A stretch of DNA of 64,000 bases, from contig DATBKZ010000054.1 in NCBI GenBank assembly GCA_036555615.1, positions 660 through 64,659 on the forward strand. The letters are read 5' to 3'. Made by a program: the position numbers and the translations under genes. The stretch comes from Burkholderiales bacterium. Its GTDB lineage: Bacteria; Pseudomonadota; Gammaproteobacteria; Burkholderiales; SG8-41. Below are positions 5,382 through 40,816 of the stretch, in pieces (within the stretch, counting starts at the first letter, position 1; each line of letters begins with the position of its first letter). The notes below the pieces were generated by a model. That model was not told the DNA's origin. It saw only the letters and a program-made list of their open reading frames with translations, and ran no database searches.

Positions 5382-6812
5382 TCAGCAGGCGGGGCGCGAG
5401 CGGATCGCGTCGGCGATCTTGCGCGGGATGCTGGTCCCGCGCGCGCCGCCCAGAAACTCGCCCTTGTGGACCATGATCTTGCCACGCAGTATCGTGGTCT
5501 CCGGCCATCCCGCGATGTCGTGGCCCTCCCACGGGCTGTAATCGGTCTCGTGCAGATCTTCCACGCGCACCTTGCCCCGGACGGCGGGATCGAAGATGAC
5601 GAGATCGGCGTCGCTGCCCGCCGCGATCACGCCCTTGCGCGGGTGCAGCCCCATGAGGCGCGCGGCGTTGGTCGAGACGTGATCCACGAACGCCTCCAGC
5701 GAATAGCCGCGCTTCACCACCATTTCGCTGTACATCACGGAAAGCCGCGGCTCGACGCCGGCGCTGCCCCCCGTGGTGTCGTCGATGCGCTTGCCGTGGA
5801 TTTTCGTGCACAGGGGCGTGCAGATTCCGTCGGTCGCGACCGTGCTGATCTCGCCGTCCACCGTGCCCCGCCACAGCGCCTGCTGGTCCGCCTCGGTCTT
5901 GAGCGAGGGATAGGTGTGATAGATCTGTCCGTTGGGGCGCCGGTAATCGGAGGCGTTGTAGAGCATGTACTGATGCAGCGTCTCGCCGTAGATCGGGTAG
6001 CCCCGCGCGCGCGATTCGCGGATCGCCGCGACGCCGGTGCCCGCGCTCACATGCATCATGTAGAGCGCGGTGCCTTCGACGTTTTCCGCCAGCCGGATGA
6101 TGTGCCGGAACGCGAGATCCTCGGACAGCGCGCTGTGCACTTCGGGCATGTTCTCGAAGCCGACCCGTCCTTCCGCGATGAGCTTCTCGTACATGTGCAT
6201 CACGAGATCGTCCTCCTCGGCATGGATCGCTGCCAGCCCGCCGTGCCGCGCGAGCACCTTGAAGATTTCCCAGATGTCGCCGTACCCGACTTTCCTGCCG
6301 GTGACGGACGGCCGGATGTTCGTCGTGAAGATTTTCACCGTGGGGAAGCCCGCCTGCATCGCTTCCGGCAACTCGTTCACGATGGTGGGCGGAATCTTGC
6401 CGAGCAGCGTCACGTGAAACGCGTAGTCGCAATGGCACTGCCCGCGCCACTGGCGGTCGCGGCGCGCGATTGCCTGCTCCAGCGTCTCGCCCTGATTCCA
6501 GAAGGCGAAATCAACGAGCGTGGTCGTGCCGCCGAAGAGCGCCGCCCGGCTCACCTGCGCCGAACCGGCGCTCAGCAGCGGCGGGCCGCCGTCCTTGCCC
6601 GGCTGCACCTGCCAGTCGCAATGGATGTGCGGGTCGATGCCGCCGGGAAAGACGAGCTTGCCGCCGGCGTCGATCGTCCGCGCGGCGGGCACGTCCTTCA
6701 GCGCCTCGGGCGCGGCTACCGCGGCGATGCGCTCGCCGGCGATCGCGATATCCCGGGGGCCCGCGCCCTCCGGGGTGACCGCGAGACCGCCGCGTATGAT
6801 GAGATCGAGCAT
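5382..6812 (-). CDS. Dihydropyrimidinase/D-hydantoinase-type cyclic amidohydrolase
   Basis: 476-aa ORF with GGIDPHIH metal-binding motif 1, a TIM-barrel amidohydrolase layout and a DADLVIFDP C-terminal motif. Confidence 0.85.
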   Translation of the reverse strand: MLDLIIRGGLAVTPEGAGPRDIAIAGERIAAVAAPEALKDVPAARTIDAGGKLVFPGGIDPHIHCDWQVQPGKDGGPPLLSAGSAQVSRAALFGGTTTLVDFAFWNQGETLEQAIARRDRQWRGQCHCDYAFHVTLLGKIPPTIVNELPEAMQAGFPTVKIFTTNIRPSVTGRKVGYGDIWEIFKVLARHGGLAAIHAEEDDLVMHMYEKLIAEGRVGFENMPEVHSALSEDLAFRHIIRLAENVEGTALYMMHVSAGTGVAAIRESRARGYPIYGETLHQYMLYNASDYRRPNGQIYHTYPSLKTEADQQALWRGTVDGEISTVATDGICTPLCTKIHGKRIDDTTGGSAGVEPRLSVMYSEMVVKRGYSLEAFVDHVSTNAARLMGLHPRKGVIAAGSDADLVIFDPAVRGKVRVEDLHETDYSPWEGHDIAGWPETTILRGKIMVHKGEFLGGARGTSIPRKIADAIRSRPAC

Positions 6813-6864
6813 GCGTGTGCTCCTTTTGTCAGAGGATAGCCGGCGTCAGTGCAACGGTTCCGCC

Positions 6865-8220
6865 TCAGGATCGACCGTAGCGGCGCAGGGAGTTGGTCAG
6901 TTCGCGCACGCTCTGCCAGCGCTCGCAGCGCTCCGCAAGCTCTTCGATCCGGGCTACGCCTTCCGGGGTGAGCACGACCGCCGCGAGCTCCCGGAATTTC
7001 TCGCGAATCTCCGACTCCGCGAAGGGCTGCTGGAAGTCACCGCGGTGACTCTCGCGCGCGTGCGTGCTTTGCCGGCCGTCCTTCAGGGCGAGGGTCACGC
7101 GCGCGGGCCGCAGGCGCGGGGCGACGGCGCTCATCGCCGGATCCTCCCTCACGTGCACGCGATGACGCAGCGCGGCCACGGAAGGGTCGCGCAAGGCGGC
7201 GTCATCGAGCGCTGTGTAACCGGCATTACCTTTCACTACCATAACCGCCGCCGCGTGGGGCAGCGAATACTTCGATGCGAAATAATTGGGCGGATCCGGG
7301 CTGCGCATGAACGATGCGAAACGATAGGTGGCGACGTCGATGCGCTCGATGTCCTCGGGCCGGGGGCGCAGCGCGTCGAGAGCCTCGCGCAGGCAATCCA
7401 GGGCGGGATGGATGGGATTGCAGCACGCGTACTGGCGGAAATAGTTAAGCGTGATCTCCCAGCGGGTTCCAAGCTCATCGAGCAAACTGTCGGGCCTGAA
7501 CCCGTCCCCCACGAGATTCGCGAGCGCTTCCTCGATGGCGTCCCCCTGCGCCTCGAATCCGGCGCAGGCGAGCTCGGGGGCGAGCGCGCAGGCGAGCCCG
7601 CTCATTCCCCCAGCGACATTGAGCGCCGTCGCCCCCGCTACGGCGCTGGTGTAGCTCGGGGTCAGCACGAGTGTCGCGGCGATGCGCATGGCGAGGCTCA
7701 CCCCGGCCGCGTCCAGGCAGCGCATGCGCGCTCCCGCGGCGGCGGCGCCCACCAGTGTAGCCTGGCCGTTCTGATGCGCCAGCGGGCGCGGCGTGAAGGC
7801 GGAGCACAGACGGCCGGCGACATCGTAACCGAGAACGAAAGCGGCCATCATTTCGCGGCCGCTGCCCGATGCGGACTCGGCCACCGCCAGCGCGCCGGGC
7901 AGAATCTGGACCGCCGGCTGGCCGGTGACCAGACGCAGGCCTTCGCACAGTTCGATCGCGCGACCGGCAATGCCGTTGAGCAGCGCGGCAGTGCGCGGCT
8001 CGCTCGCGATCCAGCCCCGCGCCAGCACAGTGGCGCCGCTGCCCGCGGAGGGCAACAGCCGCGCCCGCAGCTGCCGCACCTCGGGCCGCTCGGACCCCGC
8101 GAGAATCACGCCGAGCGTATCGAGAAACACCAGCTTGGCATGCCGCTGCACGGGCCCGGGAATGTCCTCCCACCGTGTCTCCGCGGCGAACCGCGCCAGT
8201 TGCTCGATCTGCCGCCCCAT
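6865..8220 (-). CDS. MmgE/PrpD family protein
   Basis: 451-aa ORF. It starts QLARFAAETRWEDIPGPVQRHAKLVFLDTLGVILAG and ends with the PrpD-like ...HRGDFQQPF block. Confidence 0.85.
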   Translation of the reverse strand: MGRQIEQLARFAAETRWEDIPGPVQRHAKLVFLDTLGVILAGSERPEVRQLRARLLPSAGSGATVLARGWIASEPRTAALLNGIAGRAIELCEGLRLVTGQPAVQILPGALAVAESASGSGREMMAAFVLGYDVAGRLCSAFTPRPLAHQNGQATLVGAAAAGARMRCLDAAGVSLAMRIAATLVLTPSYTSAVAGATALNVAGGMSGLACALAPELACAGFEAQGDAIEEALANLVGDGFRPDSLLDELGTRWEITLNYFRQYACCNPIHPALDCLREALDALRPRPEDIERIDVATYRFASFMRSPDPPNYFASKYSLPHAAAVMVVKGNAGYTALDDAALRDPSVAALRHRVHVREDPAMSAVAPRLRPARVTLALKDGRQSTHARESHRGDFQQPFAESEIREKFRELAAVVLTPEGVARIEELAERCERWQSVRELTNSLRRYGRS

Positions 8221-8235
8221 CCCGGCGCCCCCGCC

Positions 8236-9237
8236 TCATTCGAGCTTGATGCCGGCCTCCCGAATGATGCGGGTCCACTTGGCGACCTCGTTACGGACGA
8301 ATTGCTCGAACTGGGCCGCCGTGCTGCCGACCGGGGTCGCGCCCTGCTCCAGCGTGCGCTCACGGATGACTGGCGTCGCCATCGCCTTGGCGGTTTCGGC
8401 GCTCAACCGCTCGACGATCGCGGGTGGCGTGCCGGATGGCGCCATCACGCCGAACCAGCCGATCGCCTCGTAGTCCTTGAATCCCGCCTCGATCGCGGTC
8501 GGCACGCCGGGCAGCGCCGACGCGCGTTCGCGCGTCGAAACCGCGAGCGCCCGCAGCCGGCCGGCGCGGATGAGCGACAGCACGGTTTCGATCGTATTGA
8601 ACGCCGTCGTGGCCTCGCCGCCCATCACGGCCACCGCCGTCGCGCCGCCGCCCTTGTACGGCACATGCGTGAGCCGGGTCTTGGTGACGATCCCGAACAG
8701 CGCGCCGGCAAGATGCATCGCGCTGCCGGCGCCGGCGGATGCATAGAGCACCTCGCCCGGCCTTGCCCGCGCGAGCCTGACGAAGTCGTTCAGGTCCCTC
8801 GCGGGAAAGGACGGAATCACGACGATGACGTGCGGCACCTGCACGACCTGCGAGACGCGCGCGAAGTCCTTGATCGAATCGTAGCGGAGCTTCGGGTAGA
8901 GGCCGGGGCTGAAGGAGAAGGAAGCCGAAGTCATGAGGAACGTGTAGCCGTCGGCCGGCGACCGGGCAACATGCTCGGTGCCCAGCGTGGAGCCGGCGCC
9001 CGGGCGGTTTTCGACGATGAATTGCTGGCCCAACGTTTGGGAGAGCTGTTGCGCCAGCAGGCGGGCGAAAATGTCGGTGCCGCCCCCGGGACCGAACGGC
9101 GTGACGATGCGCACTGTCTTTCCCGGCCACCTTTGCGCCGACGCGTCATCGATCCCGGCGACAGACAGAAGTGCGGCCGCAGCCGCCGCGCCTGCCAGCG
9201 CACGAACCGCCATGGCGGGATATCGCTCCGATTTCAT
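8236..9237 (-). CDS. Bug/TctC-family substrate-binding protein
   Basis: 333-aa ORF with a signal peptide, KTVRIVTPFGPGGGTD and VPYKGGGATAVAVMGGE. Confidence 0.9.
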   Translation of the reverse strand: MKSERYPAMAVRALAGAAAAAALLSVAGIDDASAQRWPGKTVRIVTPFGPGGGTDIFARLLAQQLSQTLGQQFIVENRPGAGSTLGTEHVARSPADGYTFLMTSASFSFSPGLYPKLRYDSIKDFARVSQVVQVPHVIVVIPSFPARDLNDFVRLARARPGEVLYASAGAGSAMHLAGALFGIVTKTRLTHVPYKGGGATAVAVMGGEATTAFNTIETVLSLIRAGRLRALAVSTRERASALPGVPTAIEAGFKDYEAIGWFGVMAPSGTPPAIVERLSAETAKAMATPVIRERTLEQGATPVGSTAAQFEQFVRNEVAKWTRIIREAGIKLE

Positions 9238-9297
9238 GGTACCCCCTCCGTCAATCCGCCACGTGCTCCAGTTGTTGGAGTGTCTGGAATCTGTCTT

Positions 9298-10326
9298 TCA
9301 TTCGATTCGGATCCGGGCCGCACGCGCGACTTCACCCCAGCGTTTGATTTCGCTCCCAATGTGTAAGCCGAACTCCTTCGGAGTCCCTCCGATGATCTCG
9401 ACTGAGGACGCCGCGAAGCGCTCGCGCAGGTCCGGCTGCCGCAGCGCCTTGTTGATTGCTGCATTCAAGCGGCTGATGATGTCCCGCGGCGTGCTTTTGG
9501 GCGCAAGCATGCCGTACCACAGGCCCGCTTCCATGCCTTGGTAGCCCTGCTCGGCGAACGTGGGCACGTCGGGCAACTGTGCAAGCCGCTTCGCGTTCGC
9601 GGCGGCGAGCGCCCGCAGCCTGCCTGCCTTCACGTGGCCGAGGAATGGCGGCGGGCCGTCAATCATGAAATGAACTTGTCCGGCGACCACCTCAGGCACC
9701 GCCGCCCCCGTGCCCTTATAGGGCACGTGCAGCAGGTCAACACCCGCCTTGAGCTTGAACAGTTCGGCGGCGAGGTGAGGGGGACTGCCGTTTCCGGCGG
9801 TGGCGTAGCGGTACTTGCCGGGGCTGGCCTTGAGCAACGTAACGACGTCCTTGAGGGTGGTTCCAGGCACCGACACATGGACAAACATGACCAGCGGGAT
9901 GCTTACCATCAATGCGATTGGCTCGAAGCTCTTGATGGGATCGTACGGCAGCTTCTGATAGAGATTGGGCCCGATGCCGTGGGTCGTCATGGTCGCCTCC
10001 AGCAGCGTGTAACCGTCGGGCGCGGCCCGCGCCGCCAGTTCGCTGCCGATGATTCCAGACGCTCCGCTGCGATTGTCCACCACCACCGATTGTCCGAGTA
10101 TTTCAGACATTTTCTGCCCGACGGTGCGCGCGGTGATGTCGGCGGAGCCGCCGGGCGCGAAGCCCACGATCACGCGGATTGGCTTGGACGGGAAGGACGG
10201 ATTATCGGCGGCCCCGGCCGGGAACACCGCAGGAAGAAGGGCCACTGCGGCAACGGCACCCAGCAATCGCTGGCGCGCCGTGATAAACGATCGGGTGCCA
10301 AGATGCGCGATCGGAGCCCGGGTCAT
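9298..10326 (-). CDS. Bug/TctC-family substrate-binding protein
   Basis: 342-aa ORF with KPIRVIVGFAPGGSADI and VPYKGTGAAVPEVVAGQV. Confidence 0.9.
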   Translation of the reverse strand: MTRAPIAHLGTRSFITARQRLLGAVAAVALLPAVFPAGAADNPSFPSKPIRVIVGFAPGGSADITARTVGQKMSEILGQSVVVDNRSGASGIIGSELAARAAPDGYTLLEATMTTHGIGPNLYQKLPYDPIKSFEPIALMVSIPLVMFVHVSVPGTTLKDVVTLLKASPGKYRYATAGNGSPPHLAAELFKLKAGVDLLHVPYKGTGAAVPEVVAGQVHFMIDGPPPFLGHVKAGRLRALAAANAKRLAQLPDVPTFAEQGYQGMEAGLWYGMLAPKSTPRDIISRLNAAINKALRQPDLRERFAASSVEIIGGTPKEFGLHIGSEIKRWGEVARAARIRIE

Positions 10327-10520
10327 CGGTTTTTCTCCTCGGCTATTGGCTTGGGGGTGGGATACCGCCCGAACATTATAGTCCGCTTCACACTCGACCT
10401 CCTGGCACGATTACTTTCGGCCGCGATTCAATGTGCGCACTGATGTCGCCGGGCCGTGTAACCCGGATCATATCGCGCTGGCCCGGGATTTATTTGACGG
10501 CGCGGCTGAACCGGCGCCTG

Positions 10521-10650
10521 CGGCGGGCTTCAGCTCGACCTCGAGCCCCTCTTCCTGGTATGCGCCGAGCGCGCAGGCCGCGTAGAACGGCGCGTAGAAG
10601 ACCGCGCGAAAATTCTCGATGAGGACGATCGGCACGCCGGCGATTCTCAT
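10521..10650 (-). pseudogene. 5' remnant (about 40 codons) of an NMT1/THI5-like gene, paralogous to 5265-5379
   Basis: ATG 10650-10648 overlaps the LysR stop (ATGA). It reads MRIAGVPIVLIENFRAVFYAPFYAACALGAYQEEGLEVELKPAA, then diverges and stops at 10468. The DNA is about 88 percent identical by eye to 5265-5379 over about 115 bp. Confidence 0.6.
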
Positions 10651-11624
10651 TCCCGCCGCGTGGGCCGGCGCGTCTTCGGCGCCGGCGTGCTGCGCGCACC
10701 GGAGCGGGCGTTGATTTCGGGCTCCCAGCCCGTCTCCGGAAAGATCTCGGAAACGAAATCGGCGAACGCCCGGACTTTCGCCGTCAGGTAGCGGTTGCTG
10801 GGATAGACCACCTTGAGCGGGGGCGCGAGCGCGACCCAGTCCCGGAGAATCGGCCGCAGGCCGCCGGCCCATTGCGGCAGGATCACGAGCGCGTCGGGCA
10901 CCTGCGCGATGCCGATGCCGTTCAGGGCGGCCGCGGCGGCGGCCTCGAGCGAGGTCACGCCGAGATTGCCGCGCGGAGTGAAGGCAATGCGCTCCTCGCC
11001 TTTCTGGAAGCGCCAGTCGACGGTGCGGCCGGTCGAGGGCGAAATGAAGCGCACGCAGTTGTGGCGCTCGAGATCGGCCACGCTCTGCGGCGTGCCGCGG
11101 GCCGCCAGATAATCGGGCGAGGCGCACGTCACCAGGCGCACGCTGGTAACCTGGCGCGCAACGAGCGTCGAATCGCCGGGAATCTCGACGCCGCGCACCG
11201 CGCAGTCGATGCCTTCCTCGACCAGGTTCACCGCGCGATCGGTCAGCGCCACCTCGACGGTCAGGTCCGGGTAGCGCGCGAGAAAGCGCGGCAGCGTGGA
11301 GAAAAAGATGAGGTGCACGAACGAATGCGGAGTGCTGACCCGCAGCAACCCGCGCGGAGAGGTACGGGCGCTGGAAAGGAGGTCCTCGGTTTCGGCGATG
11401 TCGCCCAGGATGCGCACGCAGCGCTCGTAGAAGGTGCGGCCGTCATCGGTGAGGCGGAGCCGGCGCGTCGTGCGGTGCAACAGCCGCGCGCCGAGCCGCT
11501 TCTCGAGCTGCGCGACGGCAGTCGTGGCGGTGGGCCGGGAGATCTCGAGGCTGTCTGCGGCGCGGGCGAACGAGCCGTGCTCCACGACGCGGGCGAAGGC
11601 GCGCATGCAGAAATAGTAGTCCAT
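10647..11624 (-). CDS. LysR-family transcriptional regulator
   Basis: 325-aa ORF with an N-terminal wHTH (FARVVEHGSFARAADSLEISRPTATTAVAQLEKRLGARLLHRTTR) and a LysR substrate-binding domain. Confidence 0.9.
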   Translation of the reverse strand: MDYYFCMRAFARVVEHGSFARAADSLEISRPTATTAVAQLEKRLGARLLHRTTRRLRLTDDGRTFYERCVRILGDIAETEDLLSSARTSPRGLLRVSTPHSFVHLIFFSTLPRFLARYPDLTVEVALTDRAVNLVEEGIDCAVRGVEIPGDSTLVARQVTSVRLVTCASPDYLAARGTPQSVADLERHNCVRFISPSTGRTVDWRFQKGEERIAFTPRGNLGVTSLEAAAAAALNGIGIAQVPDALVILPQWAGGLRPILRDWVALAPPLKVVYPSNRYLTAKVRAFADFVSEIFPETGWEPEINARSGARSTPAPKTRRPTRRE

Positions 11625-11627
11625 GGG

Positions 11628-11652
11628 GATTGTTCATAATCTGTAAACAATC
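11628..11652. promoter_or_regulatory. Candidate LysR-type T-N11-A operator: GATTGTT-N11-AACAATC
   Basis: Perfect 7-bp inverted repeat with an 11-nt spacer, 4 bp upstream of the lysR start. It lies in the AT-rich divergent region shared with the NmrA-like gene. Confidence 0.45.
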
Positions 11653-11743
11653 AATTTGCTCCAGCCGTGTTTATTTTGCAAGCGGCAATCAATAAAGTGC
11701 CGCTCCGTTGCATGCTCATACTCAACCTGAGAGGAGACTCACC

Positions 11744-12718
11744 ATGACTGCTGCTAGGAAAATCATCGCCGTACTGGGCGCGACCGGCGCGCAGGGCGGC
11801 GGACTCGTCCGCGCCATCCTCGCCGACCCGCGCGGCGGCTTCGCAGTGCGCGCGATCACGAGAGACGTCAATTCGGACAAGGCGAACGCGCTGGCGAAGC
11901 TCGGCGCCGAGGTCGTCGCCGCCGATGTCGACGACGCGAAGAGCCTGGAGCGCGCGTTCGCGGGCGCCCACGGCGCCTTCTGCGTCACGTTCTTCTGGGA
12001 CCACTTCTCGCCGGAACGGGAAAAGGAGCAGGCGCGCAACATGGCGCAGGCCGCCCGCCGCGCCGGGGTCAAGCACGTCATCTGGTCCACGCTCGAGGAT
12101 ACCCGCCGCTGGGTGCCGCTCACAGATGAGCGCCTGCCGACGCTTCAGAAGCGCTACAAGGTGCCGCATTTCGATGCGAAGGGCGAGGCCGATCGCCTGT
12201 TCACCGAGGCGGGTGTTCCGACCACTTTTCTCCTGACCTCGTTCTACTGGGACAACCTGATTCACTTCGGGATGGGCCCGAAGCCCGGCGCCGACGGCAA
12301 GCTCGCGTTCACCCTGCCCATGGACGACAAGAAGCTTCCCGGGATCGCCGCCGAGGACATCGGCAAGTGCGCCTACGGCATCTTCAAGCGCGGGGCCGAG
12401 TTCATCGGGAGGACCGTCGGCATCGCGGGCGAGCACCTCGACGGGAAAGAGATGGCGGCCGCGCTCACGCGCGCCCTGGGCACGCCCGTCGTTCATGACG
12501 CGATGGCGCCCGCGACCTACCGCGCCCTTGGTTTCCCCGGCGCAGATGATCTCGGGAACATGTTCCAATTCAATCGGGATTTCAACGCGGAGTTCCGCGC
12601 GGCGCGCAGCGTGGAGTTTTCGCGTTCACTCAACCCCGCGCTGCAGACCTTCGAGCGCTGGCTGGCGGCCAATGCGAAGCGCATTCCCCTGCCCGAGCCG
12701 GCCACGGCGGGGCGGTAA
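11744..12718 (+). CDS. NmrA-family NAD(P)-binding protein
   Basis: ATG at 11744 is preceded by GAGAGGAG. The protein reads MTAARKIIAVLGATGAQGGGLVRAIL.... The track ORF starts at an upstream TTG (11708). Confidence 0.85.
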   Translation: MTAARKIIAVLGATGAQGGGLVRAILADPRGGFAVRAITRDVNSDKANALAKLGAEVVAADVDDAKSLERAFAGAHGAFCVTFFWDHFSPEREKEQARNMAQAARRAGVKHVIWSTLEDTRRWVPLTDERLPTLQKRYKVPHFDAKGEADRLFTEAGVPTTFLLTSFYWDNLIHFGMGPKPGADGKLAFTLPMDDKKLPGIAAEDIGKCAYGIFKRGAEFIGRTVGIAGEHLDGKEMAAALTRALGTPVVHDAMAPATYRALGFPGADDLGNMFQFNRDFNAEFRAARSVEFSRSLNPALQTFERWLAANAKRIPLPEPATAGR

Positions 12719-36069: not shown

Positions 36070-36224
36070 CTCCCCTCCGGAAGGCGGCCCGGAGGAGACA
36101 TCTGTGCATATGACGCAATTTCCCTGCGTCAGGTGACGACGCCCTGCCGCGCGCGCTCCTTCAATATGGGCTCCGTCGGGCTGGCGATATCCGCCGCCCG
36201 GGAAGCCAACTGGAGGGGGTCAAG

Positions 36225-36416
36225 ATGGATCTGACGATGGCGGTGAACCTGATGTGGGACGTGGGGACGGGGATATCGGTGGGGCTCCTGGCGTATGGCG
36301 CGTTACTTTGCCTGGAGCACCGGCTCGGGGGCGACGAGCCCAAGGCGAGCAGCTTCCAAGCGGCCCCGGCGCGGCCCGTGCTCCCCGGGCAAGGCCGCTT
36401 CGGCAGCGTGGACTGA
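36225..36416 (+). CDS. Possible small membrane protein (63 aa)
   Basis: Strong SD (GGAGGGGG) 6 nt upstream. There is one hydrophobic segment (GTGISVGLLAYGALLCL), and codon third positions are GC-rich. Confidence 0.4.
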   Translation: MDLTMAVNLMWDVGTGISVGLLAYGALLCLEHRLGGDEPKASSFQAAPARPVLPGQGRFGSVD

Positions 36417-36425
36417 TTGCGGCGC

Positions 36426-37391
36426 TCACCGTGGCTTGATGCCGGCGGCCTTGACCACCTTGTTCCACTGCGCGATCTCGCGCCGGATGAGGCTCGCGAA
36501 CTCCTCCGGCTTGCGGTTAACCACCTCCACGCCCTGATCAGCGAGCCGGCTCACCACCTCCGGGCTGCTCGCGCCGCGCGTGAGGGCCTGATACAGGCGG
36601 TTGATGACCGGGCGCGGCGTGCCGGCGGGCGCGAGGATGCCGAACCACTGCGAGATCACGAAACCCGGCAGGCCGGACTCCCCGAAGGTCGCGACGTCGG
36701 GCAGGACCTGCAGCCGTTTCGGGGCCGTGACGCCGAGTGCGCGGAGCCGGCCGGACTTGACGTGGGGCATGGCGGACAACGCGGTGGAAACCGCGGCGGT
36801 GATTTCGCCGGAGATGAGGCTGATGAAGGCCATCCCGGAGCCCTTGAAGATCACCTGCGGCATGTCCACCCCGGCCGACTGCTTGAACAGCTCCGCCGTC
36901 ATGTGCGGGCTGGTGCCGATGCCCGGCGAGCCGAAGGTGAGCTCGCCCGGCTTTGTCTTGGCGAGCGCAATCAGGTCCTTCACGCTCCTCGCCGGGACCG
37001 AGGGGTTCACCGTCATGATCTGGAAGGCGTCCACCACAAGCGACACTGGCGCGAAATCGCGCACGGCGTCGTAGGGCATTTTCTTGATCATGCTCGGGTT
37101 GATGGTGAGCGAGGGCTGGATGATGAGCAGCGTGTAGCCGTCGGGAGTCGCTTTCGCGACGATGCCGGTGCCGATGACGCCGCTCGCGCCGCCGCGGTTG
37201 TCGACCACGACCTGCTGCCCGAGCTCGTCGCCCAGCTTCTGGGCGAGCAGGCGCGCGAGAATGTCGCTCGCGCCGCCGGGAGAGGAGGCGACCACCAGCC
37301 GGATGGGCCGGATCGGATACTTCTGCGCAACGGCGCACTCGATCCCGGAACCGAGCAGCGCGAGCGCCAGCAGGGCGACGACTCTTTTCAT
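36426..37391 (-). CDS. Bug/TctC-family substrate-binding protein
   Basis: 321-aa ORF. Its ATG overlaps the upstream CMD stop (ATGA). It has RPIRLVVASSPGGASD and VIFKGSGMAFISLISGE. Confidence 0.9.
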   Translation of the reverse strand: MKRVVALLALALLGSGIECAVAQKYPIRPIRLVVASSPGGASDILARLLAQKLGDELGQQVVVDNRGGASGVIGTGIVAKATPDGYTLLIIQPSLTINPSMIKKMPYDAVRDFAPVSLVVDAFQIMTVNPSVPARSVKDLIALAKTKPGELTFGSPGIGTSPHMTAELFKQSAGVDMPQVIFKGSGMAFISLISGEITAAVSTALSAMPHVKSGRLRALGVTAPKRLQVLPDVATFGESGLPGFVISQWFGILAPAGTPRPVINRLYQALTRGASSPEVVSRLADQGVEVVNRKPEEFASLIRREIAQWNKVVKAAGIKPR

Positions 37392-37939
37392 GGCAATCCT
37401 CCTTTTCTTGGTAATGGCCGCACTCCCAGAGTGCGGGTAAACGCCTGCATGCCGTAATGGAAGGCGATGAAGGCGCCCAGCTCCATGATTTGCGCCTCGG
37501 TGAAGTGCATCTTGCCTTCCGCGTAGAACACGCCGTCAATTTTCTCTGGATTGAGGTACATCTCGCGCGCGTAGCGCAGCGCCCATTTTTCCGCGGGGGA
37601 GAAGCGCTGGTCGCTCTCGAACTTGCCCGTCCCGGCCTCGATCGTTTTCTCGTCGAGCCCGGCCGCGCGCGCGCGCGCCGAGCGCAGGCCGGCGAAATAG
37701 GGGTCGCCCGCCGTGCGCGCGAGCTGCACGCGGATGATCTCCTTGAGACGGTGGTCCACATTGCCCGCGATGTGCGATTCGAGCAGGGCGCGGAGCAGCG
37801 CCTTCGCGTACGCCGGCACGCGCGCGAGGATAAGCGGAAAGAGTGCGTCGGGCACGCCCAGTGACTCACAGCGCCCGATCAGTTCGCGCAGCTCGGGGTC
37901 GCGGATTGCCTCAGGCTTCAGCGGCTCGATGTGCGGCAT
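37388..37939 (-). CDS. CMD/AhpD-fold protein lacking the redox Cys pair
   Basis: 183 aa from ATG 37939 (MPHIEPLKPEAIRDPELRELIGRCESLG...HRLKEIIRVQLARTAGDPYFAGLRSARARAAGLDEKTIEAG...). At the CxxC position it has D-P-Y-F. Confidence 0.8.
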   Translation of the reverse strand: MPHIEPLKPEAIRDPELRELIGRCESLGVPDALFPLILARVPAYAKALLRALLESHIAGNVDHRLKEIIRVQLARTAGDPYFAGLRSARARAAGLDEKTIEAGTGKFESDQRFSPAEKWALRYAREMYLNPEKIDGVFYAEGKMHFTEAQIMELGAFIAFHYGMQAFTRTLGVRPLPRKGGLP

Positions 37940-37976
37940 CGTCCGATCTAAGGGATGAGGGATGATGAAAGACCTG

Positions 37977-38594
37977 TCACTTCGTCGCGGCGGCCAACGA
38001 CGCAGGCACCGTGCCGTAGATGCGCGCCGACTCCTCCTGGCTGACCAGGCGCCCGTCGGGCGCGAACATCGGGTAGAACCTGAGCGTCCCGAAGAAGGTG
38101 TGATAGCCGATGTTGAAGCCGATAAAGGTACCGAGCTCGACAATCTCCTCCTCGGAATAGTGCCGGCGCAGCCCGTCGTAGAACGCGGCGTCGATTCTCG
38201 CCGGGTTGAGCGCCATCAGCTCGCTGTAACGCAACGCGAGCTTCTCGGCCTCGGTGAAGCGCGGGCTCGTCGCGTAGTCGGCGATGCCCTCGTCGATGTC
38301 GCCTTCGGTCAATCCCTGCCGCCTCGCCGAAGCGGACCGGACGTTTCCTCAGTAGACGCAGGAGGCCATGCGGGAGAGCTGCACCCGGATAATCTCCTTC
38401 AACGTGTGGCTGACGCGGCCGGTATTGAAGATGGTGTCCCAGGCGACGAACATCGCCTCGCACAGGTCGACGTTGTGGCCCATCATCGCGTGGAAGCCCG
38501 GGTCGGGCGCGCGGTGCTGGAGGCACTTGTCGATATAGGGCCGGAGCTTGGTCTTCCTCAGCTCCTCGATGTCGAGCATGGTGATGTTCGGCAT
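37977..38594 (-). CDS. AhpD/CMD-fold protein with an in-frame TGA (38351-38349) at the second Cys of the CxxC motif; candidate selenoprotein (alternative reading: nonsense pseudogene)
   Basis: Track ORFs 38349..38897 (real start ATG 38594) and 37977..38312 are in the same frame. The joined product is 205 aa: ...HTLKEIIRVQLSRMASCVY[TGA]GNVRSASARRQGLTEGDIDEG.... It is collinear with the paralog at 37388-37939. Confidence 0.6.
38319..38340 (-). promoter_or_regulatory. Candidate SECIS-like hairpin 9-30 nt 3' of the in-frame UGA
   Basis: The minus strand reads CCGGUCCGC-UUCG-GCGAGGCGG. By hand this gives 8 pairs with two single-nt bulges and a UUCG tetraloop. It was not folded computationally. 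Confidence 0.3.
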
Positions 38595-38664
38595 GGCGCA
38601 AATCTTACACCGGCCCCATTTACCTGACCGGCAGATGTCTGCCTCCCCCCTGCGCGCTACTGGC

Positions 38665-38678
38665 TTGATCTGGGTCAA
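38665..38678. promoter_or_regulatory. Near-consensus FNR-type box TTGAT-CTGG-GTCAA (9/10)
   Basis: It lies in the 160-bp divergent region between the TGA-containing AhpD-like gene (start 38594) and the BamE-like lipoprotein gene (start 38755). Confidence 0.35.
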
Positions 38679-38754
38679 GACGGCTGAGGTGCGTGCGCGA
38701 GAGACTGTTCCAGTCGAAGTGTCCCCTGGCGGGCAACCGCTGAAGGAGTCATCC

Positions 38755-39183
38755 ATGAACAAGCGCTTGTGGCTCGCACTGCTGCCCATGATATTGGCGG
38801 GTTGCATGACGGCCCCGGAGCATCGTGCCGCGGTCGAGGGCGAGGGAACCGACCGCCTGACGGTCGGCAAGGTCCAGCGCGAGATCCGCGTGGGCATGAC
38901 CGGGGCGGAGGTGGTTCAGGTGCTCGGTACTCCGAACATCGTCAGCACGGACGAGGAGCGCCGCGAGGTCTGGGTCTATGACCGGGTATCCACCACGACA
39001 GTGCATTCGGAGAGCCGCGCCGGCGTCCTGGCGCTGGTTTTCGGCGGAAGCGGCGGTGCGCTGGGCGGTGTCGGCGGCGACGCCGGCGCGCGCAGCACGA
39101 CACAGCGCACCCTCACGGTCATCATCAAATTCGACAAGGACTCGCGCGTCCGGGACTTCGCCTACCACGCCAGCCAGTTCTGA
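38755..39183 (+). CDS. BamE/SmpA/OmlA-like lipoprotein with a Gly-rich tail
   Basis: ATG 38755 follows GAAGGAG. It has a lipobox (MILAGC), the SmpA_OmlA-like block LTVGKVQREIRVGMTGAEVVQVLGTPN...EVWVYD, and the Gly-zipper-like FGGSGGALGGVGGDAGA. Confidence 0.7.
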   Translation: MNKRLWLALLPMILAGCMTAPEHRAAVEGEGTDRLTVGKVQREIRVGMTGAEVVQVLGTPNIVSTDEERREVWVYDRVSTTTVHSESRAGVLALVFGGSGGALGGVGGDAGARSTTQRTLTVIIKFDKDSRVRDFAYHASQF

Positions 39184-39194
39184 CGGGGGCGGCG

Positions 39195-39764
39195 ATGAAG
39201 CGCCGTGTGGACCTCCGCGCTCCGTCGCTGCTTGCTGCCGCGGTGGTGCTGGCTGTGAGCGCGGTGGCGTGCGCCCCGGGCACCGGGAAGAAGGAGGTGC
39301 AGCCGCGGCCGGAGCTGGCGGCGGACCGGGAGCTGCAGGCGCGGCGCTTCGAGGGCATCAGCGAGGAGAAGCTGCTGGCTGCATCCGTTGGCGTGCTGCA
39401 GGACCTCGGATTCACGATCACGGTTGCCGATGCCGAGATTGGAATGGCGACCGGCGTCAAGGACCGAGATGCGAAAGCGCCCGAACAGAGGGCCGCCGTG
39501 ATCGTCCTCATGATCCTGCTCACTGCGGCATCCGGGCATGCACCGCCGACCGGCGACATGAGAGAGGAGCAAACAATCAGGGTATTGCTGACGACACGCC
39601 CTGTCCGGGGCAGCAGCGACGCCTACGAAGTGCGGGTGACATTCCACCGGTTCCTGCGCCAGCCCCTGGTCGTCGAGGCTGGCGGCTTCCGTGACCCGAG
39701 GCTGTACGAGGGATTCTTCGAGCTTCTGTCCAAGGCGATCTTTCTGGAGGCACACAGACTGTGA
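39195..39764 (+). CDS. Uncharacterised lipoprotein, paralog A
   Basis: 189 aa with a signal and Cys (AVSAVAC). The shared core is LQARRFEGISEEKLLAASVGVLQDLGFTITVADAEIGMATG...VRVTFHRF...DPRLYEGFFELLSKAIFLEAH. Confidence 0.65.
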   Translation: MKRRVDLRAPSLLAAAVVLAVSAVACAPGTGKKEVQPRPELAADRELQARRFEGISEEKLLAASVGVLQDLGFTITVADAEIGMATGVKDRDAKAPEQRAAVIVLMILLTAASGHAPPTGDMREEQTIRVLLTTRPVRGSSDAYEVRVTFHRFLRQPLVVEAGGFRDPRLYEGFFELLSKAIFLEAHRL

Positions 39765-40213
39765 ACCGAAACAGCGCCATCCTCATCCTGGCGGCGCTCG
39801 CCTGCATACCCGCGCTGTCATCGTGTGCGTCGTCCCCCGAGAGCGGGGTCCTGTCGAGTCCCGAAAGCCAGTTGAAGCTGCGCAGCATCCAGTCGCGCGC
39901 CTACGACACTACCGACCGGCTGATGGTGCTGAGAGGCGTGGTCGCCACGCTGCAGGACCTCGAGTTCATGATCGAGGCGGCCGATGCTGCGCTGGGGTTG
40001 GTGACGGCGCGGAAGCTTCTGCTGCCCAGGGACACGCTCCTCGGAAGCAACTTGATGCTGACGGTGACGGTGCGTCCGCGCGGGGAGAAGCAGATGCTGG
40101 TGCGGCTCAACGCGGAGTTCAACCGGCGCGCAGTTGAGGACCCGGAGGTTTACCAGAGCTTCTTCGTGGCGCTCGGCAGGACTCTGTTCATGAGCGGGCA
40201 CGAGGTCGATTGA
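39761..40213 (+). CDS. Uncharacterised lipoprotein, paralog B
   Basis: 150 aa. Its GTG overlaps the preceding stop (GTGA). It has a good lipobox (ALSSC). The core is IQSRAYDTTDRLMVLRGVVATLQDLEFMIEAADAALGLVTA...VRLNAEFN...DPEVYQSFFVALGRTLFMSGH. Confidence 0.7.
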   Translation: MNRNSAILILAALACIPALSSCASSPESGVLSSPESQLKLRSIQSRAYDTTDRLMVLRGVVATLQDLEFMIEAADAALGLVTARKLLLPRDTLLGSNLMLTVTVRPRGEKQMLVRLNAEFNRRAVEDPEVYQSFFVALGRTLFMSGHEVD

Positions 40214-40216
40214 GCC

Positions 40217-40816
40217 GTGCGCCGTGTTGGCCGGGTTTTCCGCTTGCCGGGGGGTGGCATCGCCCACGCGTCCGGCTTGCTGCGGCTTCTCGCGCTGGTG
40301 GTGCTGCTGCTCTTCGCGCACGGGTGTGCCACCGAGCCAAAGCTGGCGCAGTTGATGCAGGTCGGGCCGGAAGCGGCGGCCAACCGGGCGTTACAGACGC
40401 GACGGTTCAGTGAAGTGAGCGAGGCCGAATTGCTCGCGGCCTGCGTCAGCGTATTGCAGGATCTTGGCTTTCGCATTACGGCATCGGAAGCGCGGCTCGG
40501 CGTGGTAACCGGCGACAAGCCCCGGTCCGACGCGGACATGCTCGCCGACGTCGGCCGCCTGAGTCTCCTTGCCGGCATTACGATGGGGCTCCACCCGGAA
40601 CTCTCCAAGGGGTTTGCCGATAGCTTCGGCGTCGTGCTGGCGACGCGAGGCGTCGGCGGCGGGGCGCGCGTTCACGAAACCAGAGCCACTTTTTATCGGG
40701 GGTACGTCGGCGGGTACGGCGGGAGACACGCCGTGCTCATCACGAGCCCGGTGCTCTATCAGCGGTTTTTCGGCATGGTCGATACGACGCTGGCCCGAAC
40801 GCGCTCCGGCAACTGA
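40217..40816 (+). CDS. Uncharacterised lipoprotein, paralog C
   Basis: 199 aa, starting 4 nt after the previous stop. It has a signal and Cys (LLFAHGC). The core is LQTRRFSEVSEAELLAACVSVLQDLGFRITASEARLGVVTG...TRATFYRG...SPVLYQRFFGMVDTTLA. Confidence 0.6.
   Translation: MRRVGRVFRLPGGGIAHASGLLRLLALVVLLLFAHGCATEPKLAQLMQVGPEAAANRALQTRRFSEVSEAELLAACVSVLQDLGFRITASEARLGVVTGDKPRSDADMLADVGRLSLLAGITMGLHPELSKGFADSFGVVLATRGVGGGARVHETRATFYRGYVGGYGGRHAVLITSPVLYQRFFGMVDTTLARTRSGN

What the first reader, a model, noticed from the sequence alone, without database searches (positions are those of the whole stretch)
37977..38594. In-frame TGA at the second Cys of the CxxC motif of an AhpD-fold protein: candidate selenocysteine
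- The two minus-strand track ORFs (38594-38352 and 38312-37977) are in the same frame. They are separated only by TGA 38351-38349 and 12 sense codons.
- The joined translation reads ...HTLKEIIRVQLSRMASCVY-TGA-GNVRSASARRQGLTEGDIDEG....
- It aligns position for position with the paralog immediately downstream: ...HRLKEIIRVQLARTAGDPYFAGLRSARARAAGLDEKTIEAG....
- The TGA falls where AhpD/carboxymuconolactone-decarboxylase-fold peroxidases carry the second Cys of the GCxYCxxxH motif, giving C-V-Y-U.
- No other damage is visible: there are no frameshifts, GC3 stays high on both sides, and the C-terminal half is intact.
- By hand I can draw a hairpin with a UUCG loop 9-30 nt after the UGA (38340-38319), which is where a bacterial SECIS sits.
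- As I recall, selenoproteome surveys have reported AhpD-like selenoproteins with CxxU, but a gene caller would split or discard this one.
- The gene heads an operon with a Cys-less paralog (D-P-Y-F at the motif) and a Bug-family binding protein.
Basis: partly seen in the sequence, partly recalled or inferred. Interest (0 to 1): 0.8.

Follow-up and report, generated by a model that had tools for sequence, protein, structure and literature searches.

The report
Unannotated selenocysteine gene, AhpD-like family
The "stop" codon that splits this small redox-enzyme gene very probably encodes selenocysteine, because it is kept in all 80 related genomes examined and is followed by a conserved RNA hairpin; this class of selenoprotein has been known since 2005, but gene callers still cut this gene in two.

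Summary

- **The gene.** Minus-strand 38594..37977 is one 205-codon reading frame. Its only interruption is TGA 38351-38349, in the motif C79-V-Y-TGA.
- **Conservation.** All 80 related loci, from alpha- and betaproteobacterial genomes at 71-92% identity, carry TGA at exactly this codon and no other internal stop.
- **Selection.** dN/dS is 0.03-0.2 on both sides of the TGA.
- **Cys counterparts.** Relatives at 25-40% identity have CxxC in the same columns.
- **Hairpin.** A 6-7 bp hairpin with a GGC loop lies 17-33 nt after the U of UGA (window 38335-38319). It is paired in 72 of 72 distinct sequences. It coincides with the only four conserved codons in the gene that show about zero synonymous variation.
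- **Sec machinery.** tRNA-Sec, selA and selB lie within 10 kb in 15 of 80 loci. selD lies directly downstream in 6.
- **Fold.** Pfam, PDB matches and an AlphaFold model all give the AhpD/CMD fold.

- The loop is GGC, not UUCG.
- The motif's His is Arg here.
- The Bug/TctC gene is not a conserved partner.
- The Cys-less paralog is a conserved partner (77 of 77 loci, and fused in some). A thioredoxin gene precedes the pair in 21 of 80 loci.

The Sec machinery of the window's own genome could not be checked. AhpD-like CxxU selenoproteins are already known, so this is a new member of a known kind.

The parts
37977..38594 (-). Complete selenoprotein gene: 205 codons plus a TGA stop; AhpD/CMD-fold protein with Sec at codon 82
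   Evidence: One frame with a single internal TGA. Pfam CMD PF02627 scores 31.7 bits against a cutoff of 23. 80 orthologous loci at 71-92% identity. dN/dS is 0.03-0.2 on both sides of the TGA. The AF2 model of ortholog P0001 matches only AhpD/CMD structures.
38349..38351 (-). UGA codon 82, read as selenocysteine
   Evidence: TGA in 81 of 81 orthologous genes. It aligns with the second Cys of CxxC in 57 distant relatives. Full-length database homologs show 'W' here, most likely TGA translated with genetic code 4 (inference).
38349..38360 (-). Redox motif C79-V-Y-U82 (CxxU)
   Evidence: Direct reading. Cys79 is invariant: TGC in 73 genes and TGT in 8. In the AF2 model of P0001 a helix spans residues 80-92, so the motif sits at its N-terminus.
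38319..38335 (-). SECIS-like hairpin, upper stem-loop: 7 bp in the window, with a GGC loop at 38328-38326. The U38331·G38323 pair is a wobble in the window.
   Evidence: RNAfold and RNAalifold results. The six core pairs are standard in 72 of 72 distinct sequences. Codons 88-91 (GCT TCG GCG AAG) are the only 4 of 110 conserved degenerate codons with about zero synonymous variation. The loop starts at nt 24 after the U of UGA, against nt 22 in E. coli fdhF folded the same way.
38312..38342 (-). Extended hairpin: a lower stem of up to 4 bp plus an internal loop around the upper stem
   Evidence: MFE fold of the window sequence is -15.0 kcal/mol over the first 45 nt, against -14.9 for E. coli fdhF. 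The lower pairs are less conserved: 13-36 is paired in 46 of 72 sequences and 15-34 in 59 of 72.
37388..37939 (-). Cys-less paralog (D-P-Y-F in place of C-x-x-U), 183 aa, starting 37 nt after the selenoprotein gene; inferred partner subunit
   Evidence: Directly downstream on the same strand in 77 of 77 loci that have sequence there. Fused in frame with the selenoprotein in L018 and L024 and in database proteins P0003, P0004, P0009-P0014. CMD scores 22.5 bits, just under the cutoff.
36426..37391 (-). TctC/Bug-family periplasmic binding protein gene, overlapping the paralog's stop by 4 nt. A local neighbour, not part of the conserved module.
   Evidence: PF03401. ATGA overlap by direct reading. 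In this position in only 1 of 80 loci.

Best explanation
**What it is.** Window 38594..37977 (minus strand) is a single gene for a roughly 22-kDa AhpD/CMD-fold selenoprotein. UGA 38351-38349 is decoded as selenocysteine.

**How decoding works (established bacterial mechanism).** SelB carrying Sec-tRNA(Sec) is recruited by the hairpin that lies in the coding sequence 17-33 nt after the UGA.

**Active site.** The result is a C79-x-x-U82 centre at the N-terminus of a helix.

**Catalysis (inferred by analogy with AhpD-type CxxC enzymes).**
- The selenolate of U82 attacks an oxidised substrate. A hydroperoxide or an oxidised protein or small-molecule thiol is the most likely candidate.
- C79 resolves the intermediate into a selenenylsulfide.
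- A thioredoxin re-reduces it. A thioredoxin gene is co-encoded upstream in 21 of 80 related loci. In this window the cell's general thioredoxin would have to serve.

**Partner (inferred).** The protein works as a hetero-oligomer with the catalytically dead paralog encoded immediately downstream.

**Shown:** the conserved in-frame UGA, the conserved hairpin, the fold, the Cys counterparts, the linkage to sel genes, and the conserved pairing or fusion with the paralog.

**Inferred:** actual Se incorporation, the substrate, the reductant and the heteromer.
For: 1. TGA sits at codon 82 in 81 of 81 genes, from 80 loci on 79 contigs of alpha- and betaproteobacterial genomes at 71-92% identity, with no other internal stop.
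2. Purifying selection acts on both halves: dN/dS is 0.03-0.2 for the window against eight orthologs, at dS 0.13-0.6.
3. A Sec/Cys pair exists: 57 relatives at about 25-40% identity carry CxxC in the aligned columns.
4. The hairpin's six core pairs are standard in 72 of 72 distinct sequences. Every stem substitution preserves pairing. L022 has one full compensatory change (U-A to C-G), and the window carries the U·G intermediate.
5. Of 110 conserved degenerate codons, only the four consecutive codons 88-91 at the hairpin apex have about zero synonymous variation.
6. Spacing, loop G residues and stability match E. coli fdhF folded identically. [quoted passage not shown]
7. tRNA-Sec lies within 10 kb in 14 of 80 loci. 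selA/selB lie there in 15 of 80, confirmed by Pfam SelA and SelB domains in L032. selD lies directly after the paralog in 6 loci.
8. Fold: Pfam CMD is above its cutoff. PDB sequence matches align CxxC with C-x-x-U. An AF2 model with pLDDT 79 matches only AhpD/CMD structures.
9. The paralog is adjacent in 77 of 77 loci and fused in L018 and L024. A thioredoxin gene lies upstream in 21 of 80 loci.
10. AhpD-like and CMD-like CxxU selenoprotein families are documented (PMC1088965, PMC2398784, PMC13188914).
Against: - The window's 64 kb hold no tRNA-Sec, selA, selB or selD, so the Sec capacity of this particular genome is unverified.
- Single-sequence folding energy of the region after the UGA is not unusual for 67% GC DNA: z = +1.25, and 183 of 200 shuffles fold at least as well.
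- Formal covariation support is weak because the element hardly varies. One pair has a double change, and 51 of 500 shuffles reach the observed score.
- No reliable Cys-containing ortholog exists within the close family. The only one, P0016/L087, is a 518-nt contig at 1.27x coverage with an in-frame TAG.
- No Rfam family matches.
- There is no experimental evidence of Se incorporation. Substrate and reductant are inferred from context only.
- The His of the AhpD proton relay is replaced by Arg.
Confidence: 0.88

Rival explanations
1. Pseudogene: the TGA is a nonsense mutation in a decaying AhpD-like gene.
For: Gene callers split the gene into 81-aa and 111-aa pieces. No sel genes lie in the window.
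Against: The same TGA occurs in 81 of 81 orthologs with no other stops or frameshifts. dN/dS is 0.03-0.2 downstream of the TGA as well as upstream. Nucleotide-level constraint falls on the hairpin.
Confidence: 0.01
2. In this particular genome the gene is a recent relic. The family is a genuine selenoprotein, but the window's organism has lost the Sec machinery, so only the 81-aa fragment is made.
For: No selABCD or tRNA-Sec in the 64 kb. The window's hairpin carries a weakening change, K91R (AAG to AGG), which turns a U-A pair into U·G.
Against: About 25 species-level genomes of the window's own clade (L001-L024, at least 80% identity, dS up to 0.6) keep the TGA, the hairpin and low dN/dS in the C-terminal half. 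In most loci the sel genes also lie more than 10 kb away, so their absence from the window says little. U·G still pairs, and the fold is -15.0 kcal/mol.
Confidence: 0.05
3. UGA is read through without selenium, for example by near-cognate Trp or Cys insertion stimulated by the downstream hairpin. The product would then be a CxxW or CxxC protein.
For: Database translations show W at this position. Downstream structures can stimulate read-through in general (background knowledge).
Against: The W is best explained by code-4 translation in metagenome gene calling: the same proteins also read through their terminal TGA into W-containing tails. The position is the catalytic second Cys of CxxC in relatives, and Trp there would be inert. 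tRNA-Sec, selB and selA are adjacent in 15 of 80 loci.
Confidence: 0.03
4. Two separate functional genes: a programmed stop gives an 81-aa N-terminal protein, and re-initiation gives a 111-123-aa C-terminal protein. The two then assemble into a split AhpD fold.
For: Start-like codons follow the TGA in many orthologs, where callers begin at V/M-RSASAK or MTEGD.
Against: The called starts are inconsistent between orthologs. In most sequences the 'MRSASAK' position is GTC, which is not a start codon. The split would fall inside the active-site motif at a helix N-terminus. It does not explain the TGA-specific conservation: never TAA or TAG in 81 genes.
Confidence: 0.02

Closest known systems
AhpD-like (COG2128 / TIGR01926) and CMD-like (PF02627) CxxU selenoproteins, described from the Sargasso Sea and GOS metagenomes (Zhang, Gladyshev and colleagues; PMC1088965, PMC2398784; tabulated in PMC13188914)
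   Same: - AhpD/CMD fold.
- Sec at the second position of the CxxC motif (CxxU).
- A bacterial SECIS hairpin with a G-containing apical loop just after the UGA.
- Cys homologs are widespread, and the function is uncharacterised.
   Different: - This protein scores below the curated cutoffs of TIGR01926 (39.6 against 81.8 bits) and NF053654 (65.6 against 310). It is therefore a separate subfamily with no curated model.
- It always comes with a Cys-less paralog, which is sometimes fused to it.
- It is found here in soil, groundwater and freshwater alpha- and betaproteobacterial MAGs, not in marine samples.
- No mention of the pairing, the upstream thioredoxin gene or the sel-gene linkage was found in the papers searched.
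Mycobacterium tuberculosis AhpD and the Pseudomonas aeruginosa AhpD/PA0269 structures (7xw1, 2ijc, 2o4d)
   Same: - Same all-helical fold: best Foldseek matches have TM-score up to 0.76 on the target.
- The redox dyad sits at the same place.
- A Glu lies 12 residues before the first Cys (E67...C79). The corresponding AhpD spacing, Glu118...Cys130, is recalled from memory.
   Different: - Sec replaces the second Cys.
- Arg replaces the His at +4 (the AhpD CxxCxxxH relay is recalled from memory).
- About 60 extra N-terminal residues compared with PA0269.
- A heteromeric partner is inferred, whereas these structures are homo-oligomers.
- No AhpC gene lies nearby.
Debrominase Bmp8 (PDB 6ohi, 6ohj)
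   Same: Best sequence match among solved structures (E = 3.4e-10). It covers residues 31-159, and its C-M-Y-C aligns with C-V-Y-U. This shows that the fold supports thiol-based reductions other than peroxide removal.
   Different: Only about 22% identity. Bmp8 uses Cys, not Sec. No bromopyrrole biosynthesis genes lie nearby.
E. coli fdhF SECIS element
   Same: - A hairpin within the coding sequence directly after the UGA.
- The apical loop begins with G residues at nt 22 (fdhF) against nt 24 (here), counted from the U of UGA.
- Similar predicted stability: -14.9 against -15.0 kcal/mol over 45 nt.
- A bulged U on the 5' side appears in the folds of the betaproteobacterial consensus (L032, U16) and of alphaproteobacterial L048 (U18).
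   Different: - The upper stem is longer, at 6-7 bp.
- The loop is GGC, where fdhF has GGUC.
- Binding by the cognate SelB is untested.

Membership tests
Bacterial selenoprotein gene (Sec-decoding UGA) | In-frame UGA conserved across orthologs in an otherwise intact ORF under purifying selection | tested here: met
   81 of 81 genes have TGA at codon 82 and no other stop. dN/dS is 0.03-0.2 on both sides.
Bacterial selenoprotein gene (Sec-decoding UGA) | Homologs with Cys aligned to the UGA (Sec/Cys pair) | tested here: met
   57 relatives at about 25-40% identity have CxxC in the aligned columns. Caveat: the only close Cys form (P0016/L087) is an unreliable contig at 1.27x coverage.
Bacterial selenoprotein gene (Sec-decoding UGA) | SECIS: a stem-loop immediately downstream of the UGA with a small apical loop containing G | tested here: met
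   A 6-7 bp stem with a GGC loop at nt 17-33, paired in 72 of 72 distinct sequences. Synonymous variation is abolished at codons 88-91 only. Geometry is comparable to fdhF.
Bacterial selenoprotein gene (Sec-decoding UGA) | Compensatory covariation in the SECIS stem | tested here: inconclusive
   Only one pair has a double change (L022). 51 of 500 shuffles reach the observed covariation score. The element is too invariant for the test to be informative.
Bacterial selenoprotein gene (Sec-decoding UGA) | selA, selB, selC and selD present in the same genome | not testable with these tools
In ortholog-bearing genomes the feature is met: sel genes lie within 10 kb in 15 of 80 loci.
Bacterial selenoprotein gene (Sec-decoding UGA) | Selenium actually incorporated at the UGA position | not testable with these tools
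   Needs 75Se labelling or mass spectrometry.
AhpD / carboxymuconolactone decarboxylase fold (Pfam PF02627) | Match to the CMD profile above the gathering score | tested here: met
   31.7 bits against a cutoff of 23, with Cys substituted for Sec. The paralog scores 22.5 bits, just below.
AhpD / carboxymuconolactone decarboxylase fold (Pfam PF02627) | All-helical AhpD-type tertiary fold | tested here: met
   The AF2 model of ortholog P0001 has pLDDT 79.4 and pTM 0.74. The top 38 Foldseek PDB matches are all AhpD/CMD-family structures.
AhpD / carboxymuconolactone decarboxylase fold (Pfam PF02627) | CxxC redox dyad at the canonical position | tested here: met
   C79-x-x-U82 aligns with the CxxC of Bmp8 and PA0269 and of 57 relatives.
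AhpD / carboxymuconolactone decarboxylase fold (Pfam PF02627) | His at +4 after the second Cys (the CxxCxxxH proton relay of M. tuberculosis AhpD, recalled from memory) | tested here: not met
   Position +4 is Arg86 (U-G-N-V-R), invariant in 81 genes. Its CxxC relatives likewise read C-x-Y-C-G-N-Q-R.
NCBIfam TIGR01926 'peroxidase-related enzyme' (the model given for AhpD-like selenoproteins in PMC13188914) and NF053654 'YciW-related (seleno)protein' | Score above the curated whole-protein cutoff | tested here: not met
   TIGR01926 scores 39.6 against 81.8 bits. NF053654 scores 65.6 against 310 bits. Orthologs and their CxxC relatives give the same picture. The protein is related to these families but is not a member of either.

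The most novel reading that the evidence does not exclude
The module of thioredoxin, Sec-AhpD-like protein and Cys-less partner may not be a peroxide-defence enzyme. It could instead be part of selenium metabolism itself.

- In six alphaproteobacterial genomes the order is selA, selB, selC on one strand, then trx, the U-gene, the paralog and selD on the other. In 15 of 80 genomes the module abuts the sel genes.
- A selenol/thiol heterodimer reduced by thioredoxin could reduce or traffic selenite, selenotrisulfide or a perselenide, and hand selenide to SelD.
- That would be a selenoprotein acting in the supply line for selenoprotein synthesis.

The evidence does not exclude this reading. It is equally explained by a selenoprotein gene and its decoding machinery travelling together as one transferable island.
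Probability: 0.1. Interest if true: 0.7.

Novelty: new member of a known kind. Interest (0 to 1): 0.35.

Why it matters
**Annotation.** This widespread gene is found in at least 79 species-level alpha- and betaproteobacterial genomes and hundreds of metagenome contigs. Public annotation systematically splits it into an 81-aa piece and a piece of about 112-127 aa. The pieces are labelled 'hypothetical' or 'carboxymuconolactone decarboxylase family protein'. No curated NCBIfam model covers it. Recognising the Sec codon restores a complete redox enzyme and flags these organisms as selenium users.

**Biology.** Three things are not reported in the papers I could search: the strict pairing (and occasional fusion) with a Cys-less paralog, the frequent upstream thioredoxin gene, and the placement next to selABCD. 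Together they give a concrete, testable picture of a thioredoxin-dependent heteromeric selenoenzyme.

**The principle is not new.** CxxU AhpD-like selenoproteins have been known since 2005.

Tried and rejected
- **Single-sequence folding as evidence for a SECIS.** The 81-nt region folds no better than shuffles (z = +1.25), which is uninformative in 67% GC DNA. I replaced it with comparative analysis.
It gives only 3 bp and -3.6 kcal/mol. The GGC-loop core gives -7.0, and the full fold about -13 to -15. Rejected.
- **Rfam scan of 37900-38800 at E up to 10.** No match. This says only that nothing in that library reached threshold.
- **Promoter and terminator consensus scan of 36100-38900.** Nothing found, so the operon boundaries are not defined.
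- **Covariation test.** Weak, with one double change and 51 of 500 shuffles reaching the score. I do not claim covariation. The argument rests on pairing conservation and synonymous-site suppression.
- **A close Cys ortholog (P0016).** Its contig L087 is 518 nt at 1.27x coverage, carries an in-frame TAG at a conserved Phe codon and has a hairpin identical to the consensus. It is a sequencing error or a very recent conversion, so I did not use it as evidence.
- **Bug/TctC as a functional partner.** It is in that position in only 1 of 80 loci. Rejected as part of the conserved module.
- **Sec machinery in the window.** tblastn with SelA and SelB (from L032) and E. coli SelD, plus ARAGORN, found nothing.
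- **Other in-frame TGA candidates in the window.** The six other same-frame TGA junctions look like ordinary adjacent genes and have no redox motif.
- One Pfam call failed on wrong coordinates.
Full report
**1. The observation**

- Window 37977-38594, read on the minus strand, translates as one frame of 205 codons. It has a single internal stop, TGA at 38351-38349: MPNITML...RVQLSRMASCVY*GNVRSASARRQGLTEGD...AAATK*.
- GC3 is 0.97 before the TGA and 0.90 after it.
- The next gene downstream (37939..37388, 37 nt later) is a paralog. It aligns column for column and carries D-P-Y-F where this gene has C-V-Y-TGA.
- A TctC/Bug-family gene overlaps the paralog's stop by 4 nt.
- The same sequence, TGA included, occurs on at least four independent JGI metagenome contigs. 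There the gene was called as separate 81-aa and 111-aa genes.

**2. The TGA is conserved, not damage**

- A protein search found hundreds of homologs. Most are fragments of 112-127 aa that begin just after the TGA, meaning gene callers split them in the same way.
- Every full-length homolog has 'W' exactly at this codon (C-[VSN]-Y-W-G-N-V-R-S-A-S-A-K). These proteins also read through their terminal stop into W-containing tails. The simplest reading is that TGA was translated with genetic code 4 on short metagenome contigs (inference).
- A scan of one genome per prokaryotic species returned 80 loci at 71-92% identity. They come from Burkholderiales and other betaproteobacterial MAGs and from alphaproteobacteria: Xanthobacteraceae, Pseudolabrys, Aquabacter and the isolate Rhodoplanes tepidamans DSM 9987.
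- In all 80, and in the window, codon 82 is TGA and there is no other internal stop.
- dN/dS between the window and eight orthologs is 0.03-0.17 for codons 1-81 and 0.13-0.20 for codons 83-200, at dS 0.13-0.6. The part after the 'stop' is therefore under the same protein-level selection as the part before it.

This excludes a pseudogene.

**3. Cys counterparts**

- A full HMMER search of 1.84 billion cluster representatives with ortholog P0001 gave 880 relatives.
- Among the fetched sequences that cover the motif, 57 have C-x-x-C in the aligned columns. Typical forms are ...VSRSVKC-EYC-GNQRS... and ...C-GYC-GTVRS..., at 25-40% identity.
- A further 38 are DxxF paralogs.
- The classical Sec/Cys-pair criterion is met at the family level.
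- The only Cys form within the close family (P0016) sits on a 518-nt contig at 1.27x coverage. That contig has an in-frame TAG at a conserved Phe codon and a hairpin identical to the consensus. I do not rely on it.

**4. The hairpin**

Counted from the U of UGA, nt 17-23 pair with nt 27-33 around a GGC loop (window 38335-38319). A weaker lower stem extends this to nt 10-40.

- RNAalifold on 72 distinct sequences returns the six-pair core, nt 18-23 with 27-32.
- All six pairs are standard in 72 of 72 sequences. The substitutions seen are C-G to U·G (19 sequences), G-C to G·U (3), and U-A to U·G (the window itself) or to C-G (L022, a full compensatory change).
- Formal covariation is weak: one double change, and 51 of 500 shuffles reach the score. 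The reason is that the element barely varies.
- The stronger evidence is at synonymous sites. Of 110 conserved degenerate codons in the gene, the only four with about zero synonymous variation are the consecutive codons 88-91 (GCT TCG GCG AAG: 80/81, 81/81, 81/81 and 79/79). These form the apex of the hairpin. Other four- and six-fold sites average 1.2 bits.
- Mean pairwise nucleotide identity is 0.905 for nt +10 to +36, against 0.767 for the gene as a whole.
- Folded the same way, the E. coli fdhF element has its loop at nt 22-25 and -14.9 kcal/mol over 45 nt. The window has its loop at nt 24-26 and -15.0 kcal/mol.
- The loop starts with G residues, the feature stressed for bacterial SECIS elements (PMC1088965, PMC1794560).
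- In the alphaproteobacterial clade two co-occurring synonymous changes (TCC to TCT, CGG to CGA) re-register the base of the stem and leave a bulged U. This is suggestive only.
- The single-sequence folding energy is not special (z = +1.25).
- Rfam has no match.

**5. Sec machinery**

- The window has no tRNA genes and no selA, selB or selD.
- Among the 80 loci, each with at most 10 kb of flank, tRNA-Sec (anticodon TCA) is present in 14.
- selA/selB are present in 15, with Pfam SelA, SelB beta-barrel and SelB winged-helix domains confirmed in L032.
- A Cys-type selD follows the paralog directly in six alphaproteobacterial loci.
- In those six the order is selA, selB and selC on one strand, then trx, the U-gene, the paralog and selD on the other.
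- tRNA-Sec is the most frequent tRNA gene near this family. This linkage is far above chance, and it shows that the family lives in Sec-decoding organisms.
- For the window's own genome the machinery could not be checked. The argument there is indirect: about 25 species-level genomes of the window's own clade keep the TGA, the hairpin and a constrained C-terminal half.

**6. What the protein is**

- Pfam CMD (PF02627) is above threshold, at 31.7 bits against 23.
- The best NCBIfam matches are NF053654 'YciW-related (seleno)protein' (65.6 bits against a cutoff of 310) and TIGR01926 'peroxidase-related enzyme' (39.6 against 81.8). Both are far below cutoff, for orthologs and their CxxC relatives as well. 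It is a separate subfamily without a curated model.
- The best solved relatives are the debrominase Bmp8 (E = 3.4e-10), P. aeruginosa PA0269/AhpD, Atu0492 and several 'peroxidase-related' structural-genomics proteins. Their CxxC aligns with C-x-x-U.
- An AlphaFold2 model of ortholog P0001 (pLDDT 79.4, pTM 0.74) is all-helical, with the motif at the N-terminus of helix 80-92. It matches only AhpD/CMD structures in the PDB.
- Glu67 lies 12 residues before Cys79, as in AhpD (the AhpD spacing is from memory).
- The His at +4 is replaced by an invariant Arg86.

**7. Conserved partners**

- The Cys-less paralog lies directly downstream on the same strand in 77 of 77 loci that have sequence there.
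- It is fused in frame, through an Ala/Pro-rich linker, in L018 and L024 and in many database proteins, including one from a SAR324 MAG. This is a Rosetta-stone argument for a heteromer of one active and one dead subunit.
- A thioredoxin gene (WCVPC) lies immediately upstream on the same strand in 21 of 80 loci of both classes, including Rhodoplanes tepidamans. The window clade lacks it.
- The Bug/TctC gene is not conserved in this position (1 of 80 loci).

**8. Mechanism**

- Shown: a conserved recoded UGA with a SECIS-like hairpin in an AhpD-fold gene, linked to sel genes.
- Established knowledge: SelB bound to Sec-tRNA(Sec) binds the hairpin and delivers Sec at the UGA (PMC1794560).
- Inferred:
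  - U82 is the nucleophile, corresponding to the second Cys of AhpD, which I recall as the reactive one.
  - C79 resolves the intermediate to a selenenylsulfide.
  - Thioredoxin recycles it.
  - The paralog is a structural or regulatory partner.
  - The substrate is a peroxide or another oxidised sulfur or selenium species.

**9. Comparison and novelty**

- AhpD-like (COG2128, CxxU; 27 sequences in the Sargasso Sea and 299 in GOS) and CMD-domain (PF02627, CxxU) selenoproteins have been described since 2005 (PMC1088965, PMC2398784). They are listed in a 2026 review and a 2026 database (PMC13188914, PMC13326102).
- The principle is therefore known. This is a further subfamily that current pipelines still mis-annotate.
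- In the papers I could search I found no description of the obligate paralog partner, the fusions, the upstream thioredoxin gene or the position between selC and selD. That is a limited negative.

**10. Verdict**

- Probability that this UGA encodes Sec in the family: about 0.95.
- Probability that it does so in this organism: about 0.88.
- Novelty: new member of a known kind.
- Interest: moderate to low (0.35).
- There is a minority reading (about 0.1) that the module serves selenium supply to SelD. That would be considerably more interesting.

Noticed in passing
L040, L048, L055, L058, L059, L062 (about 6000-12300 in the 20-kb loci): In six alphaproteobacterial MAGs the selenoprotein module is embedded in the Sec-machinery cluster. 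selA, selB and tRNA-Sec lie on one strand. Thioredoxin, the U-gene, the paralog and a Cys-type selD lie on the other.
   Followed up: partly
21 loci, e.g. L025 1384-1737, L032 9651-9983, L079 9652-9969: A thioredoxin gene (WCVPC) ends within about 20-70 nt of the selenoprotein gene's start, on the same strand, in 21 of 80 loci. It is absent from the window and its closest relatives.
   Followed up: partly
L018 and L024 (genes of 434 and 423 codons); proteins P0003, P0004, P0009-P0014: Natural in-frame fusions of the Sec-containing domain and the Cys-less paralog through an Ala/Pro-rich linker of about 70 aa. They include a SAR324 MAG protein that NCBI annotates starting after the TGA.
   Followed up: partly
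Proteins P0172 (376 aa, two CMD domains) and P0237 (170 aa): More distant CMD-family proteins with 'W' at the second CxxC position (C-EYW, C-PEW, C-SYW). They are probably further TGA/Sec sites translated with code 4, which would make them additional unannotated AhpD-like selenoprotein subfamilies.
   Followed up: no
L087 (ENA contig of 518 nt, coverage 1.27x): The only close homolog with TGC (Cys) where the family has TGA. It keeps a hairpin identical to the consensus and has an in-frame TAG at a conserved Phe codon. It is a sequencing error or a very recent Sec-to-Cys conversion.
   Followed up: yes
window 38755-40816 (+): A divergently transcribed row of four small lipoprotein-like ORFs (142, 189, 150 and 199 aa). 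The first has a faint BamE hit. The other three share an LQDL[GE]F-I motif and look like tandem paralogs with no Pfam family.
   Followed up: no
L070 and L076 (both on contig CBDIHQ010000013.1, Aquabacter sp.): Two copies of the selenoprotein-plus-paralog module lie about 40 kb apart on one contig, both with TGA.
   Followed up: no
L048 about 10640-11250: The paralog appears frameshifted in this long-read MAG. This is probably an assembly indel and not biology.
   Followed up: no
window 38323-38324 (codon 91, AGG): The window's hairpin has AAG to AGG (K91R), which turns a U-A pair into U·G. L022 has the same AGG plus a compensating GCT to GCC, giving C-G. These are the only two sequences that deviate at this pair.
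   Followed up: yes
Public annotations of P0009, P0044, P0055 (NCBI) and L082-L085 (JGI): The gene is annotated as fragments labelled 'hypothetical protein' or 'carboxymuconolactone decarboxylase family protein'. No NCBIfam model reaches its cutoff for this subfamily.
   Followed up: partly
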